Assembly (NCBI RefSeq): GCF_002305855.1
Contig: NZ_CP022163.1
Location: 6,939,765-7,003,764, forward strand
Reading direction: 5' to 3'
Source: Melittangium boletus DSM 14713
GTDB lineage: Bacteria > Myxococcota > Myxococcia > Myxococcales > Myxococcaceae
Length of the DNA stretch: 64,000 nt
Shown: in pieces, positions 54,350 to 64,000 of the stretch
How the letters are laid out: each line of letters starts with the position of its first letter
Position numbering within the stretch: the first letter of the stretch is position 1
Notes under the pieces: generated by a model
Told to the model about the DNA's origin: nothing
Databases searched by the model: none
Seen by the model: only the letters and a program-made list of their open reading frames with translations
Program-made: the position numbers and the translations under genes

Positions 54350-55082
54350 TCAGCCTCCGTCGCCGGTGTCGGCGCAGGTGGCGTCTGAGCTGCGGTGCTC
54401 CGCCAGGAAGATGGTCTGCGCCATCATGCGGTACCCGGACATGCCTTCGCGAAGGGTTTCGATGGACTCCTCCGGGTGCACCGAGTCGATCACGGCATGG
54501 GGCCCGACCGCGTTGAACTGGTGCGAGACGCCCCGGGGGATCTGCATGTCCACCCAGCAGTTCGGTGGCACGACGACGTTGTACCGGTCCCGGTGCACGC
54601 CGGCCGGGGTGTCCGGCAGGGGGTCGACGAAGGCGCGCAGCGGGGTCGTCCAGTCCGGGCGGTAGCGGACGGTCAGGGGGGACAGGCTGGAGACGCGGAT
54701 GGTGGTGTCCGGGCCGGTCATCATGCGCACGAAGCGCAGGCCGGTGTGCAGGTGCATGCGGGAGCAGATGCCGCGTTCCCGGGTGTCGTAGAAGTCCATC
54801 AGGTAGCGGTCGGCGAAGTAGCCCTCGAAGGGGGGGGCCAGCATGAACACGTCGCCCTCCTCGAACGCCTGCGCCTCCTTCAGCGCGCGGGGGGGGGTGG
54901 GGGACTGGTGTTCCCGCTGGTGGGCGTGGCGGACCAGCCCGGCGAGTGCGGTCACGACGGTCAGGGCGACTTCCGGGGGCAGCTGCACCACCGGGGTGAT
55001 GCAATTGCGGCCGGGGTCCTGGTGGCGTTCCAGGTCCAACACCTCGTCCTCGTGGTCGGGGACCTGCTTCATCCTGCTCATG
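54350..55082 (-). CDS. cupin-like protein (244 aa), last gene of NRPS operon; possible tailoring oxygenase
   Basis: Start [14 protein letters not shown]... overlaps the ligase stop (ATGA). Sequence ...FEGYFADRYLMDFYDTRERGICSRMHLHTGLRFVRMMTGPDTT... suggests a double-stranded beta-helix with a His-containing metal site. The overlapping 461-aa six-frame ORF is an artefact. Confidence 0.4.
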
Positions 55083-56856
55083 CGTTGCCTCTGTTTTCGC
55101 TGGTCGGGGTGTGGGCCCACAGCACGCCGCCGAGGTCGTGGCGGCCCGCGCGCAGCAGTGCGCAGCCGACGACGGCGAAGCCCGCCTCGCGCAGTCCGGC
55201 GAGTCCGTGCCACCGGTCGCCCGGTTCCTGGGTGGGGTAGTCCATGAAGGACAGCAGTGGGCCGAGTGCCCACGGGCATCCGTCGGGGGTCGTGAGCGTG
55301 GGCAGGTGGCTGGACACCACCGCGCCCGGGTGGGCCTCGCGCAGGCGCTCGGCGAGTTCGGCGTACCCGGCCAGTGGCCATTCGGTGCTCAACTGCTCGC
55401 GCCAGCGGGCTTTCGCCTCCGCCAGCTCGGGGTCGGCACGCCGGTGCCAGTGGGCGCGCATGAACTCCAGTGCCTCGAACACCGCCTCCTCGCCCTCCCG
55501 CGCGGGCTCGTCCACGCGCCCGGCCAGTGCACGCAGCCCGGCATCGTCCACACCGGAGCGGAGCAGGTCGTGCGCGGTGGCCGAGGCGTACCGCAGCAGC
55601 CGCTCGTACCGGGCGGGCGCGTACCGCAGCGCGACCAGCGAGCGGCCCATGGCCTTGCGCTGGGGTTTGCCGGTCGAGGTGGCCTGGAATCCGCCGAACT
55701 GCACCGAGGCGGGCCGCAGCGGGCTGTTCTCGCACACCGCGCGCACGGCCTCCACCGGCTGGTCGGTGGCGACGAGCCCGATCTCGTGGCCGAGCGTGGG
55801 TTCGGCGACGGCCACCGCCGCGAACCGCCCGCCGAGCCCGGCCTCGCGCCAGGTCCGCTCGACTTCCAGGGGGTAGTGCTTCTCCCCGCCCCGGTTGATG
55901 CGCTCCCCGGCCCGGCCTCGCAGCACCAGCAGGCCCTCGCGCAGCTCACCGAGATCCCCGGTGCGCAGCCAGCCGTCCTCGGTCAGCGCCGCCGCCGTGG
56001 CCGCCGGGTCCCGCCAGTAGCCGCGCATCATGTCCGGGGTGCGCACCCACACCTCGCCGTCGACCAGCCGCAGCTCGGTCTCCGGCAGTGCCACGCCGAC
56101 CGGCGGGTGCTGGTCCAGGTACTGGCGGGTGAACGCGGGCTCGTCGAGCAGGGGAGTGGTGAAGCTGAAGTTCACCGCCTCGGTCAGGCCGTAGCCCTGG
56201 CGCAGCCTCGGGCCGTAGCGGGCGTGAAAGCGGCGGGCCAGGTCCGGAGTCAGCGGCGCGGCCGCGGTGATCAGGTACTCCAGGCCCTCCGGCCACTCCG
56301 GTGCGACCTCCAGCAGGTCGGCCAGCAGCGCGGGCACGATGGAGGCGGTCCGGGCCCCGGCGGCACGCAGCGCGGCGAAGTACCCGGCCGGGTCCGCGCC
56401 GTTGTGCAGCACCAGCGGGGTGCCGGTGAGGTGCGTGCCCAGCAACGACATGACCAGCGCGTTGCAGTGGTACAGCGGCAGGCAGGTGCCGTGCGGCCGG
56501 TCGGGGGTGAGCCCGTGGAGCGCGGCGGTCTTGGCCGCGTTGCCCAGCACCGCCTTGCGGCCGAGCATGACGCCCTTCTGCGGGCCGGTGGAGCCCGAGG
56601 TGAACATCAGGAACGCCAGGCCCTCGGCATCCGGGTGCGCGGCGGGGTGGCCAGTGTCGTGCAGCCCGCGCTCGTCCAGCACGGCGGAGGCGGCGACCCG
56701 GTCGACGATGCCGCGCACCGCGGTGTCCGTGCTGCGCGGGTGCAGGGGCACCGCGACGAGTTCGCGGTCGAAGCAGTCGAGCAGGGCCTTGGCCAGGCCG
56801 GGTCCGTTGGGCAGCCGCACCACCACCCGGGCACCTGCAGGCAGGTGGTCGATCAT
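55078..56856 (-). CDS. AMP-dependent synthetase/ligase (acyl-AMP/acyl-CoA ligase-like) with ~200-aa C-terminal extension
   Basis: [14 protein letters not shown] (A3), GYGLTEA (A5), LRTGDLG (A7), [16 protein letters not shown] (A8-like). Start MIDHLPAG... overlaps the NRPS stop (ATGA). Confidence 0.75.
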
Positions 56857-62800: not shown

Positions 62801-64000
62801 GCAGCCGGGCCGAGGCCGATCCCCGCCTGCCCGGCCCGCCGACCAGCGTCGGTCCGTCCACGGTGGACAGGATGTCGCGCCAGGCCGCCTCGGCGGCGTG
62901 TGGGTCGCGGGTGGCGAGCCAGTCCAGGAAGTCGCGGTAGGCGGGGGCCGGGGGCAGCGGATTCCCGGCGTACAGGCCGAACAGCTCCTTCACCAGGATC
63001 GGCATGGACCAGCCGTCCAGCAGGAGGTGGTGGGTGGTCAGCACGAACACGTGCCGGTCGTCGGCACGCCGTTGCAGGGCGGCGCGGAACAGCGGCGGGC
63101 GGGCCAGGTTGAAGCGCCGCTGCCGGTCCTGCGCCAGGAAGGCCTCCAGGTCCTCATGCGCGGGCAGGTCGTGCCAGGGCACGGTGAACTCCGGGTCGAT
63201 CACCTGCACCGGCCTGCCCGCCGGGCTTTGCCGCACCCCGGCGGACAGCTGCGGGTGGCGCAGCAGCAGCCGGTGCAGGGCGGTGCGCAGCCCGGCCGCG
63301 TCCAGTGCGCCTTCCAGCTCGAAGACGAACTGGACCAGGTACGGGTCGGCGCCGTCGTGGTCATAGAGGGAGTGGAACAGCAGCCCCTGGGCCAGCGGCG
63401 GCAGCGGCAGCGCGCCGGTGGCCCGGGCCCGGGCCCGGGTGCCGAGCGCGGTCAGCACCTCGAACCAGCGTTCGGCCAGCGCGCTGATCTCCTCGCGGGG
63501 CAGCAGCTCGCCCGGCCAGGACCAGTTCGCCACCAGCCGGGGTCCGTCGGGGTGGTTGGCGAGCACCGCGTCCAGCTCCACCGCGTGGGCCAGCGCGAGC
63601 CGTCCGCCGGTGGTCGCACCGACCACGGTGTCCTCGGGCAGCACCGCCCAGTCCCCGTCGCCGTCGACGTCGAAGTGGCCCAGGTAGTTGAACGCGTACC
63701 GAGGGGCCGGGACCCCGGCCAGGAGCGGCGCGGTCTGCGGGTTGAGGTGGCGCAGCAGGCCGTGGCCGAAACCGGTGCGCGCCAGGCCGTTCAGGGTCTC
63801 GCGTACCCGGGCGACCGCGCCGTCCAGGTCGACAGGGTCGGTGGGCCAGGGACAGCCCGCGGCGAGCTGGACGGGGTAGAGCGTGGTGAACCAGCCGACC
63901 GTCCGCGAGAGGTCGATGCCGTCGGCGAACTCCTCGCGCCCGTGGCCCTCCAGCTCCACCCGCACCGGGCCGGTGGCCAGCGCGAACGCGGTCAGCAGCA
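56853..64000 (-). CDS. non-ribosomal peptide synthetase, C-terminal >2,370 aa: (E partial)-C-A-T-C-A-T-TE; 5' part of gene lies beyond window end
   Basis: Approximate domain map on the minus strand: E domain tail 64000-63426 (E4 EGHGRE, E5 [13 protein letters not shown]7 FNYLGHF); C1 63410-62136 (HHLLLDGWS); A1 62123-60756 ([57 protein letters not shown]); T1 60713-60516 (LGGHSL); C2 60458-59181 (HHIAADGWS); A2 59138-57756 ([50 protein letters not shown]); T2 57713-57516 (LGGHSL); TE 57473-56856 (GWSFGG). Confidence 0.85.

What the first reader, a model, noticed from the sequence alone, without database searches (positions are those of the whole stretch)
54350..64000. Terminal NRPS bimodule (E)-C-A-T-C-A-T-TE with coupled acyl-AMP ligase and cupin - tail end of a natural-product cluster
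The window captures the last two modules of an NRPS. The upstream module ends with an epimerase domain (EGHGRE / [12 protein letters not shown] / FNYLGHF), so a D-residue enters C1, which is presumably DCL-type. Termination is by a type-I TE (GWSFGG).

Hand-extracted Stachelhaus positions give roughly D-V-F-S-V-A-M-V-H-K for A1 (no match I recognise) and D-I-L-Q-L-G-C-V-W-K for A2. The latter is 8/10 to the Gly code DILQLGLIWK.

The NRPS stop overlaps the start of an AMP-ligase (possibly a fatty-acyl-AMP ligase or aryl-acid activator, with an extra ~200-aa C-domain). That gene in turn overlaps a cupin-like putative oxygenase. The product is unknown from this fragment.
Basis: partly seen in the sequence, partly recalled or inferred. 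Interest (0 to 1): 0.55.

Follow-up and report, generated by a model that had tools for sequence, protein, structure and literature searches.

The report
Orphan NRPS operon tail, horizontally acquired
The window ends with the last two modules of an uncharacterised three-module peptide synthetase, followed by a coupled acid-activating ligase and a cupin enzyme; the whole block is a GC-rich island shared almost unchanged among distant myxobacteria and apparently acquired from actinomycetes, so it is a real but fairly ordinary orphan natural-product cluster whose small cupin is its one unusual part.

Summary
All genes lie on the minus strand.

- **NRPS, 56853-64000.** It runs off the window and reads (E tail)-C-A-T-C-A-T-TE.
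- **Ligase, 55078-56856.** An ATGA stop/start overlap leads into this 592-aa ANL ligase.
- **Third gene, 54350-55081.** A second ATGA overlap leads into this 243-aa protein.

Both hand-derived Stachelhaus codes reproduce exactly: DVFSVAMVHK (Ser/Thr-like) and DILQLGCVWK (Gly).
- C1 groups with solved C domains that I recall as D-peptidyl acceptors (DCL).
- C2 groups with ones I recall as LCL.
- Orthologues show the whole synthetase is Cs-A(Val-like)-T-E-C-A-T-C-A-T-TE.

The ligase's roughly 180-aa "extra domain" is the remnant of a SAM methyltransferase. About 100 aa, including the SAM motif, are deleted.

The third protein is a cupin by motifs and by predicted fold. It has no Pfam family. It belongs to a compact, very conserved family (PHROG 28683). 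That family sits next to an adenylating enzyme in 87 of 97 loci, phages included.

The block is a horizontally acquired island:
- GC is 0.74 against 0.65 in the flank.
- It is 96.5% identical in DNA to copies in Cystobacter fuscus and Sorangium cellulosum.
- Homology stops at the cupin stop codon.

The product and the roles of the ligase and cupin remain inferred.

The parts
63429..64000 (-). C-terminal ~190 aa of the epimerisation (E) domain of the preceding module; the gene continues beyond the window end
   Evidence: Motifs EGHGRE, RTVGWF and FNYLG at aa 17, 32 and 103. The 96%-identical Sorangium orthologue has the full E domain with HHLCVDG upstream.
62079..63416 (-). Condensation domain C1, DCL type
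   Evidence: HHLLLDG at aa 323. Starts [13 protein letters not shown]. Best solved relatives are McyB, PvdL, BacC, SrfA-C and TycB at E 1e-55 to 1e-60, against 1e-17 to 1e-28 for the second tier. The DCL/LCL labels for those chains come from my own knowledge.
60744..62078 (-). Adenylation domain of module 2, code DVFSVAMVHK (Ser/Thr-like)
   Evidence: Pfam AMP-binding and AMP-binding_C. Code. Orthologue codes are DVWNVAMVHK, which equals the L-Ser domain of tistrellabactin, and DFWSVGMVHK, a Thr-type code.
60504..60716 (-). Carrier (T) domain 1, LGGHSL
   Evidence: PP-binding hit; motif at aa 1123.
59196..60488 (-). Condensation domain C2, LCL type
   Evidence: Pfam Condensation 1171-1601. HHIAADG at aa 1308. 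Starts [12 protein letters not shown]. Best solved relatives are 5U89, a PCP-C didomain (7KVW) and Txo1/2 at E 1e-83 to 1e-115; the SrfA-C/McyB/PvdL group scores only 1e-24 to 1e-33. The LCL label is from my own knowledge.
57744..59126 (-). Adenylation domain of the last module, code DILQLGCVWK (Gly)
   Evidence: 8/10 to the published Gly code DILQLGMIWK, differing only at two of the three positions that vary among Gly codes.
57540..57731 (-). Carrier (T) domain 2, LGGHSL
   Evidence: PP-binding 2090-2153; motif at aa 2124.
56853..57482 (-). Fused type-I thioesterase (GWSFGG) and the NRPS stop codon
   Evidence: Pfam Thioesterase E 6.7e-21; motif at aa 2247.
55612..56856 (-). ANL (acyl/aryl-AMP-forming) ligase core, aa 1-415; N-terminally short; the ATG overlaps the NRPS TGA
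   Evidence: Pfam AMP-binding E 3.3e-43. Motifs [19 protein letters not shown] and TGKPQR. Best PDB matches are a fatty-acyl-CoA synthase, a feruloyl-CoA synthetase, oxalate-CoA ligase, FadD13 and malonyl-CoA synthetase. Below every NCBIfam cut-off.
55078..55611 (-). C-terminal ~177-aa extension of the ligase: remnant of a SAM-dependent methyltransferase domain with the SAM-binding core deleted
   Evidence: No Pfam hit. Relatives at 50-56% identity carry Methyltransf_11/12/23/25 here. Alignment A2 shows ~100 aa missing, including the VLExGxGxGN motif, while an invariant ...[13 protein letters not shown] tail is kept.
54350..55081 (-). 243-aa cupin-fold protein of an uncharacterised, highly conserved family (PHROG 28683); the ATG overlaps the ligase TGA
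54341..54352 (.). 3' boundary of the horizontally acquired island
   Evidence: 96.5% DNA identity to C. fuscus (down to 54341) and Sorangium So ce26 (down to 54350) ends here; the flanks are unrelated. GC is 0.737 in the island against 0.654 in the flank.

Best explanation
**Shown**
- Window 54350-64000 (minus strand) is the 3' two-thirds of a three-gene operon: NRPS, ligase, cupin.
- By its orthologues the NRPS is one ~3600-aa protein with Pfam order C-A-T-(E,C)-A-T-C-A-T-TE. The C-terminal third of its first C domain most resembles the starter C domain RzmA-Cs.
- The A-domain codes read Val-like, Ser/Thr-like and Gly.
- The ligase is an intact ANL enzyme closest to short-chain and dicarboxylic acyl-CoA synthetases. 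Its methyltransferase domain has been gutted.
- The third gene is a His110/His112/His187 cupin.
- The block is a horizontally acquired island, nested among actinomycete homologues and spread recently among myxobacteria.

**Inferred mechanism**
1. The cupin, a metal-dependent enzyme and probably an oxygenase, makes or tailors a small carboxylic acid.
2. The coupled ligase adenylates that acid, probably to a CoA thioester.
3. The starter C domain uses it to N-acylate the first residue.
4. The assembly line builds acyl-D-(Val-like)-(Ser/Thr)-Gly.
5. The TE releases the product.
For: **Domain calls and motifs.**

**Orthologous operons.**
- C. fuscus has NRPS 3617 aa, ligase 592 aa, cupin 243 aa.
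- Streptomyces nigrescens has 3777, 618 and 256 aa.
- Sorangium has an NRPS of 3616 aa.
- About 35 of 80 genome loci carry the same trio.

**Starter C domain.** The C-terminal third of the first C domain matches PDB 7C1H/K/P at E 1.6e-21. Those entries are RzmA-Cs according to PMC7804268. ObiF1, EntF and CDA-C1 follow.

**C subtypes.**

**A-domain codes.**

**Ligase.** It is closest to acyl-CoA synthetases. All ANL motifs searched except A8 are present.

**Translational coupling.** ATGA overlaps occur at both junctions.

**MT-deleted ligases.** They form one clade. In every locus that holds enough upstream sequence, that clade sits immediately after the NRPS TE.

**Cupin with an adenylating enzyme.** They are neighbours in 87 of 97 loci.

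**Horizontal transfer.**
- GC is 0.737 against 0.654.
- The alignments to two distant myxobacteria are 96.5% identical and gap-free, and they end at the cupin stop.
- dS is 0.04-0.08 and dN/dS is 0.32-0.46.
- Myxobacterial ligases nest inside the actinomycete clade.
Against: - No product is known, and I found no literature on this cluster.
- The first ~280 aa of the starter C domain, including its HHxxxDG motif, could not be retrieved. Nor could anything upstream of the NRPS. A carrier protein or a different acyl-activating enzyme may lie there.
- The ligase and cupin also occur together without any NRPS (L070, L089).
- The cupin occurs in phages at 56-64% identity. Its activity is therefore not NRPS-specific and may not concern the peptide's acyl cap.
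- Oxygenase activity is not shown. Cupins also act as isomerases, lyases and cyclases.
- In actinomycete orthologues the last A domain reads DMPQVGCVWK, which is only 5/10 to Gly codes.
Confidence: 0.5

Rival explanations
1. The ligase and cupin act after release. The ligase adenylates the C-terminal Gly carboxylate of the finished peptide and couples it to an amine or thiol, as an amide-bond synthetase would. The cupin oxidises the product.
For: - The genes lie downstream of the TE.
- In other contexts the cupin's partner is an asparagine-synthetase-like enzyme or a PP-loop plus GATase enzyme. That class amidates carboxylates.
- The ligase has no carrier protein of its own.
Against: - A starter-type C domain needs an acyl donor, and the ligase is the only acid-activating enzyme seen in the operon.
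- The ligase-cupin pair works without any peptide synthetase in other genomes.
Confidence: 0.2
2. The ligase and cupin form an autonomous two-gene module. It makes a separate small metabolite or confers self-protection, and it is merely co-transcribed with the NRPS.
For: - The stand-alone ANL-MT plus cupin pair exists (L070, L089).
- The cupin is 56-64% identical in phages and prophages with no NRPS.
- The cupin family forms a compact, highly conserved set, which suggests one fixed substrate.
Against: - ATGA coupling to the NRPS is conserved across ~35 genomes of two phyla.
- A dedicated MT-deleted ligase clade is found only behind the NRPS.
- All three genes were transferred together, and the island boundary falls right after the cupin.
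Confidence: 0.2
3. The cupin acts on nucleic-acid bases or nucleotides, as its phage setting suggests, and the operon makes a peptidyl-nucleoside-like product.
For: In 13 viral contigs and in Deinococcus prophages it sits between a ParB-like gene and PP-loop, GATase or IbrA-like genes, close to terminase. That layout resembles the neighbourhoods of ParB-dependent phage thymidine dioxygenases (PMC13229309).
Against: - There is no Pfam hit at all, so no TET/JBP hit, even at E 10.
- The metal motif is the cupin HxH...H, not HxD...H.
- Most genomic copies sit in non-phage chromosomal contexts.
Confidence: 0.05

Closest known systems
Starter-C-domain (lipoinitiation) NRPSs such as RzmA (rhizomide), with separate acyl-CoA ligases as I recall for surfactin
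   Same: The first C domain's closest solved relative is RzmA-Cs (PMC7804268). A separate ANL ligase related to acyl-CoA synthetases is encoded alongside. The line is short and TE-terminated.
   Different: - The acyl unit is unknown.
- The ligase is N-terminally short and carries a dead methyltransferase remnant.
- It is paired with a cupin.
- The catalytic motif of the first C domain was not seen.
ANL-methyltransferase fusion proteins ('AMP-binding protein', ~700-720 aa) of actinomycetes, Anaerolineae and Pasteurella
   Same: 40-56% identity over the ANL core and the conserved C-terminal tail. These proteins are also adjacent to a cupin, and in Pasteurella to an NRPS-like gene.
   Different: The window's ligase has lost ~100 aa, including the SAM-binding motif I. 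The Pasteurella cupin is not detectably homologous. As far as I could find, none of these fusions is characterised.
Cupin plus adenylating-enzyme pairs in natural-product pathways. Examples are cupin-MetRS-like systems (PMC2922099), which I recall were later shown to be hydrazine synthetases, and the cupin SbzM (PDB 9ug7), whose pathway as I recall also includes an acid-activating step.
   Different: There is no sequence similarity to those cupins. No N-hydroxylase or aldehyde dehydrogenase is present in the island. This is an analogy only.
PHROG 28683 (phage protein family of unknown function)
   Same: Full-length match, E 1.4e-103. Phage and prophage members are 56-64% identical.
   Different: Here the gene is the last cistron of an NRPS operon, not part of a phage ParB, PP-loop and GATase module.

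Membership tests
Modular NRPS (type I) | C domains with HHxxxDG, A domains with core motifs A3-A10, carrier domains with GGxS, all in one polypeptide | tested here: met
   Pfam hits and motif positions.
NRPS epimerisation domain | E-specific motifs (EGHGRE, RTVGWFT, FNYLG) plus an HHxxxDG catalytic motif | tested here: inconclusive
   The late motifs are present at aa 17, 32 and 103. The His motif lies outside the window, though the 96%-identical Sorangium orthologue has HHLCVDG.
DCL-type condensation domain | Follows an E domain and is closer in sequence to C domains that accept D-configured donors than to LCL domains | tested here: met
   The McyB, PvdL, BacC, SrfA-C and TycB group scores 1e-55 to 1e-60; the next tier (Txo, TycC, LgrA, PCP-C didomain) scores 1e-17 to 1e-33. 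C2 shows the reverse pattern. The DCL/LCL labels are from my own knowledge. No dedicated subtype HMM (NaPDoS, CDD) was available.
Type-I (fused) thioesterase | C-terminal alpha/beta-hydrolase domain with GxSxG, fused to the last carrier domain | tested here: met
   PF00975 at 76 bits; GWSFGG at aa 2247; the domain is the C-terminus of the NRPS.
Glycine-activating A domain | Specificity code DILQLGxxWK | tested here: met
   DILQLGCVWK against the published DILQLGMIWK. The differences fall only at 322 and 330, two of the three positions that vary among Gly codes. No predictor or assay was run.
ANL superfamily (class I adenylate-forming enzymes) | Motifs A3 (T/S)SG(S/T)TGxPK, A5 GYGxTE, A7 (S/T)GD, and the A10 catalytic Lys | tested here: met
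   PF00501 E 3.3e-43. [19 protein letters not shown] and TGKPQR are present.
Fatty-acyl-AMP ligase (FAAL) | FAAL-specific insertion that blocks CoA use; closest relatives are FadD32- or FAAL28-type enzymes | tested here: not met
   The ANL core is only ~415 aa, shorter than the ~500-550-aa chains it matches. The best PDB relatives are CoA ligases (fatty-acyl-, feruloyl-, oxalate-, malonyl-CoA, FadD13). No chain named as a FAAL appears among the top 60.
SAM-dependent class I methyltransferase (ligase C-terminal region) | SAM-binding motif I (E/DxGxGxG) and a Rossmann core | tested here: not met
   No Pfam hit at E 10. The alignment shows motif I and ~100 aa deleted relative to ANL-MT relatives.
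Cupin superfamily | Double-stranded beta-helix fold with motif 1 G-x5-HxH-x3,4-E-x6-G and motif 2 G-x5-PxG-x2-H-x3-N | tested here: met
Cupin oxygenase (functional claim) | Metal- and O2-dependent turnover of a substrate | not testable with these tools
   Only the fold and the putative His110/His112/His187 site are known.
TET/JBP 5-methylpyrimidine dioxygenases | PF12851 match and an HxD...H 2OG-dependent triad | tested here: not met
   No Pfam hit at E 10. The motif is HxH.
Known (MIBiG) biosynthetic gene cluster | Cluster-level similarity to a characterised BGC | not testable with these tools
   antiSMASH and MIBiG were not available. Literature searches by codes, locus tags and keywords found nothing.

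The most novel reading that the evidence does not exclude
The 243-aa cupin (PHROG 28683 family) and a neighbouring carboxylate-adenylating enzyme form a conserved two-enzyme unit with chemistry not yet described. The partner is an ANL ligase here, an asparagine-synthetase-like enzyme in Nocardia and Streptomyces, and a PP-loop plus GATase pair in phages. One example of such chemistry would be oxidative generation of a carboxylate that is then amidated, thioesterified or used to cap a peptide. On this reading the unit has been recruited independently by phages, by actinomycete chromosomes and by this mobile NRPS operon.
Probability: 0.25. Interest if true: 0.7.

Novelty: new member of a known kind. 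Interest (0 to 1): 0.42.

Why it matters
As an NRPS fragment this is routine: an orphan small assembly line for a probably N-acylated tripeptide.

Two aspects add value.
- **Recent transfer.** The operon is a clear case of a biosynthetic cluster moving recently. It is nested among actinomycete homologues and is 96.5% identical across myxobacterial genera as distant as Cystobacter and Sorangium, inserted at different sites. That makes it a convenient, compact target for heterologous expression.
- **An unannotated enzyme family.** The terminal cupin belongs to a family with no Pfam model. It is 56-83% identical across actinomycetes, Deinococcus prophages and low-GC phages. It almost always neighbours an adenylating enzyme, so an unrecognised enzymatic partnership may be found here.

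Tried and rejected
- **Exact-sequence look-ups.** The window's ligase, cupin and a flanking gene are not on record. The source genome could not be identified.
- **Third homologue search.** I used the E/C1 fragment to recover full-length orthologous NRPSs. It returned only unrelated partial C-domain proteins and was wasted.
- **NRPS N-terminus and upstream genes.** Neither the ~280 N-terminal residues nor any upstream gene could be fetched.
- **Deinococcus neighbour.** I considered that the 284-aa gene upstream of the Deinococcus cupin might match the ligase extension. It does not; it is ParB-like.
- **Pasteurella cupin.** I considered that the Cupin_2 gene next to the Pasteurella ANL-MT might be a homologue. 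It is not detectably so.
- **Defence system.** There are no PADLOC hits for the ligase or the cupin.
- **FAAL or aryl-acid activator.** This reading of the ligase is not favoured.
- **Pseudogene or decaying island.** Rejected. The ORFs are intact, the alignments are gap-free and dN/dS is 0.32-0.46.
- **MAFFT-derived codes.** They were unreliable at positions 299, 322 and 331. I replaced them with motif-anchored extraction.
- **afdb50 fold library.** It was unavailable.
- **Viral fold search.** It gave only generic cupin and JmjC matches.
- **tRNA at the boundary.** No tRNA gene is present.
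Full report
**1. What is in the sequence**

All three genes lie on the minus strand. The ORF at 56853..64000 runs off the window end, with 2381 codons visible.
- Pfam gives Condensation (E 8e-159, three stretches), AMP-binding (2.4e-157, two stretches), PP-binding x2, AMP-binding_C x2 and Thioesterase (6.7e-21).
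  - EGHGRE at aa 17, RTVGWF at aa 32 and FNYLG at aa 103. These are the late E-domain motifs.
  - HHLLLDG at aa 323 and HHIAADG at aa 1308.
  - LGGHSL at aa 1123 and aa 2124.
  - GWSFGG at aa 2247.
- The visible architecture is therefore (E tail)-C-A-T-C-A-T-TE.
- The NRPS TGA overlaps the ATG of a 592-aa gene (55078..56856) in the context GAGGAGGACCCGATGA.
- That gene's TGA overlaps the ATG of a 243-aa gene (54350..55081) in the context CAGAGGCAACGCATGA.
- GC3 is 0.93-0.95 in all three reading frames.

**2. NRPS details**
- **Numbering.** I validated GrsA numbering first; GrsA itself returns DAWTIAAICK.
- **Window codes.** Extraction with motif anchors gives DVFSVAMVHK and DILQLGCVWK. MAFFT pairwise alignments mis-placed three positions and were discarded.
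- **Last module.**
  - DILQLGCVWK differs from the published Gly code DILQLGMIWK only at positions 322 and 330.
  - The same paper lists 299, 322 and 330 as the positions that vary among Gly codes (PMC12283262).
- **Penultimate module.**
  - Most actinomycete orthologues carry DVWSVAMVHK.
  - Four Streptomyces loci (L025-L027, L029) carry DVWNVAMVHK. That code is identical to the domain loading L-Ser in tistrellabactin (PMC10391617).
  - Amycolatopsis antarctica carries DFWSVGMVHK, listed as a Thr-type code.
  - Ser/Thr is the best reading.
- **C subtypes.**
  - C1's best solved relatives are McyB, PvdL, BacC, SrfA-C and TycB at E 1e-55 to 1e-60. The next tier (Txo, TycC, LgrA, a PCP-C didomain) scores only 1e-17 to 1e-33.
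  - C2 shows the opposite pattern. 5U89, the PCP-C didomain and Txo score 1e-83 to 1e-115, and the first group only 1e-24 to 1e-33.
  - From my own knowledge, the first group accepts D-configured donors (DCL) and the second is LCL.
  - The N-terminal motifs fit the same assignment as I recall the subtype signatures: [13 protein letters not shown] for C1 and [12 protein letters not shown] for C2.

**3. The whole synthetase, from orthologues**
- C. fuscus, Sorangium So ce26 and Streptomyces nigrescens all have the same trio.
  - The NRPS is 3617, 3616 and 3777 aa respectively.
  - Its Pfam order is C, A, T, C(run), A, T, C, A, T, TE.
- The Sorangium copy (L086) supplies module 1.
  - Its A code is DALWWGGVFK, 8/10 to DALWIGGTFK. 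That paper lists DALWIGGTFK among the commonest Leu/Ile/Val codes, and I recall it as the Val code.
  - It is followed by a complete E domain with HHLCVDG.
- The C-terminal third of the first C domain matches PDB 7C1H/K/P best (E 1.6e-21).
  - Those entries are the RzmA starter C domain according to PMC7804268.
  - ObiF1, EntF and the CDA starter C follow.
- The predicted product is therefore acyl-D-(Val-like)-(Ser/Thr)-Gly.
- The first ~280 residues and everything upstream could not be retrieved.

**4. The ligase**
- It is an ANL enzyme: PF00501 at E 3.3e-43, with motifs [19 protein letters not shown] and TGKPQR.
- It falls below every NCBIfam cut-off.
- Its best solved relatives are acyl-CoA synthetases: fatty-acyl-, feruloyl-, oxalate- and malonyl-CoA enzymes, FadD13 and MenE.
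  - DhbE-type aryl activators score lower.
  - No chain named as a FAAL is in the top 60.
- The whole family starts ~90 residues later than typical ANLs.
- The last ~177 aa have no Pfam or PDB sequence match.
  - Relatives at 50-56% identity are ~700-720-aa ANL-methyltransferase fusions with Methyltransf_11/12/23/25 domains.
  - Alignment A2 shows that the NRPS-linked ligases have lost ~100 aa, including the VLExGxGxGN SAM motif.
  - They keep an invariant tail...PWAL...DRW...[13 protein letters not shown].
  - The 'extra C-domain' is therefore a gutted methyltransferase. Its conserved remainder presumably has a structural or docking role; that is an inference.

**5. The third gene**
- It has no Pfam, NCBIfam or PDB sequence hit, even at E 10.
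- It matches phrog_28683, a family of unknown function, at 1.4e-103.
- An AlphaFold model built from 44 homologues has pLDDT 83 and pTM 0.82.
  - 2OG oxygenases such as a prolyl hydroxylase and ALKBH5 score about the same.
  - Foldseek against the PDB and against viral models gives only weak generic cupin or JmjC hits.
- The sequence fits both cupin motifs.
  - Motif 1 is G-ICSRM-HLH-TGL-R-FVRMMT-G, with Arg where the consensus has Glu.
  - Motif 2 is P-R-G-VS-H-QF-N.
  - H110, H112 and H187 are invariant, as are H202, E204, E205, C106, R108, R116 and R119.
'Oxygenase' remains an inference.

**6. The cupin family is not NRPS-specific**
- Homologues are 95% identical in Cystobacter and Stigmatella and 65-83% identical in Crossiella, Streptomyces, Amycolatopsis and Actinokineospora.
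  - They are 61-65% identical in Nocardia, Gordonia, Rhodococcus and Mycolicibacterium, about 63% in Deinococcus, and 57% in phage vB_RanS_PJN03.
- A profile search of 1.84 billion representative proteins found only 54 clusters at E <= 1e-3. The ten divergent members I checked have no Pfam domain.
- I examined the contexts of 97 cupin-anchored loci.
  - 44 have an ANL or A-domain gene within 4 kb. About 35 of these are the NRPS-ligase-cupin trio.
  - 27 have an asparagine-synthetase-like gene (Asn_synthase plus GATase, 574 aa). This usually comes with a Zn-ribbon membrane protein.
  - 16 phage or prophage loci carry PAPS-reductase-like PP-loop genes.
    - These often come with ParB-like and GATase genes and lie near terminase.
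  - 10 have none of these; two of the ten (L032, L041) are truncated contigs.
- Other settings include TauD plus an aminotransferase, a ~1060-aa protein I read by eye as class-I aaRS-like plus an A domain, and an ANL plus ATP-grasp plus luciferase-like monooxygenase.
- A Pasteurella island pairs an ANL-MT with a non-homologous Cupin_2 gene and an AT-C-A-T-TE gene.
- The recurring theme is a cupin next to a carboxylate-adenylating enzyme.

**7. Horizontal transfer**
- **Composition.** GC is 0.737 for 54350-64000 against 0.654 for 12001-54340.
- **Identity to other genomes.**
  - The window aligns without gaps at 96.5% DNA identity to C. fuscus Cbf 10 (to position 54341) and to Sorangium So ce26 (to position 54350).
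  - Beyond that point the flanks are unrelated.
  - Sorangium has a DDE transposase nearby.
- **Divergence.** dS is only 0.04-0.08 and dN/dS is 0.32-0.46, with no stop codons. The genes are recently shared and still under purifying selection.
- **Actinomycete copies.** Streptomyces loci align at 72-74% DNA identity over the whole 9.6 kb.
- **Phylogeny.** In an NJ tree the myxobacterial ligases form a tight clade nested inside the actinomycete MT-less clade. That clade in turn branches from the ANL-MT forms.
- **Boundary.**
  - No tRNA or mobility gene lies at the visible boundary.
  - The neighbours are ordinary peptidase, metallo-beta-lactamase and glucose/sorbosone-dehydrogenase-like genes.

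**8. Mechanism**

Shown: the domain order, the codes, the gene coupling, the fold, the distribution and the transfer.

Inferred:
- The cupin makes or tailors a small acid.
- The ligase activates it, probably as a CoA thioester.
- The starter C domain caps residue 1 with it.
- The TE releases acyl-D-Xaa-Ser/Thr-Gly.

Rival readings are post-release modification of the Gly carboxylate, an autonomous ligase-cupin module, and a nucleic-acid-directed activity suggested by the phage context. That context resembles the neighbourhoods of ParB-dependent T-dioxygenases (PMC13229309). Against that last reading, the protein has no TET/JBP signature.

**9. Known or new**

I found no literature or named family for the cluster, the MT-deleted ligase or the cupin. 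MIBiG could not be queried.

As a system it is a new, orphan member of a well-known kind: a starter-C NRPS with an accessory ligase. The cupin and adenylating-enzyme partnership is the part that might hide new chemistry.

**10. Verdict**

Interest is moderate (0.42).

Noticed in passing
window 7000-13200: A low-GC block (0.48-0.55, against 0.65-0.72 around it) carries four genes.
- A 273-aa ORF with a weak PADLOC methyltransferase hit.
- A 365-aa SF1-helicase-like ORF with weak PADLOC mad8 and DRT-helicase hits.
- A 736-aa ORF with a C-terminal AlkB-like 2OG-Fe(II) oxygenase domain.
- A DDE_5 transposase at 11937-13187.

Just upstream, 6189-6755 encodes only a polyphosphate-kinase C-terminal fragment. 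This looks like a second, unrelated mobile or defence-like insertion.
   Followed up: partly
L052 5729-10732, and ~26 other actinomycete loci such as L049, L055 and L077: In Nocardia, Gordonia, Rhodococcus, Prauserella and many Streptomyces the cupin neighbours three other genes.
- A 574-aa asparagine-synthetase-like gene that begins MSRWCA.
- A 336-aa Zn-ribbon membrane protein.
- Often a 160-aa protein with an acidic tail.

None of these has a known function in this arrangement.
   Followed up: partly
L004, L046, L059, L090-L101 (Deinococcus prophages and high-GC viral contigs); L085, L095, L102 (low-GC phages, PJN03-like): In phages the cupin sits in a conserved module of ParB-like, cupin, 265-aa PP-loop (PAPS-reductase-like), GATase_6, IbrA-like (PAPS_reduct plus DUF3440) and a 171-aa protein. 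The module lies next to terminase. In the low-GC PJN03-like phages the cupin lies between the portal gene and a 578-aa protein with a weak CdiA_C toxin hit.
   Followed up: partly
L087/L088 (Pasteurella multocida), 3600-18145: An island next to a TnsA-like gene and an N6 DNA-methyltransferase-like (N6_Mtase/Eco57I) gene encodes seven genes.
- A PPTase.
- A Cupin_2 protein.
- An ANL-methyltransferase, 45% identical to the window ligase core by tblastn.
- An AT-C-A-T-TE synthetase.
- An ATP-grasp enzyme.
- A HisRS-like protein.
- An MFS pump.

This is an unusual small cluster for a Pasteurella.
   Followed up: no
L002/L003 10799-13491 (Streptomyces nigrescens): In Streptomyces the operon continues with a GNAT acetyltransferase, followed by a convergently oriented ABC transporter. 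Neither was carried into the myxobacterial island, which ends at the cupin stop.
   Followed up: no
window 48157-48354 and 5481-6101: Short stretches (135-395 bp) are 70-93% identical to non-syntenic places in the C. fuscus locus. They look like dispersed repeats and hint that the host is a Cystobacter-like myxobacterium.
   Followed up: no
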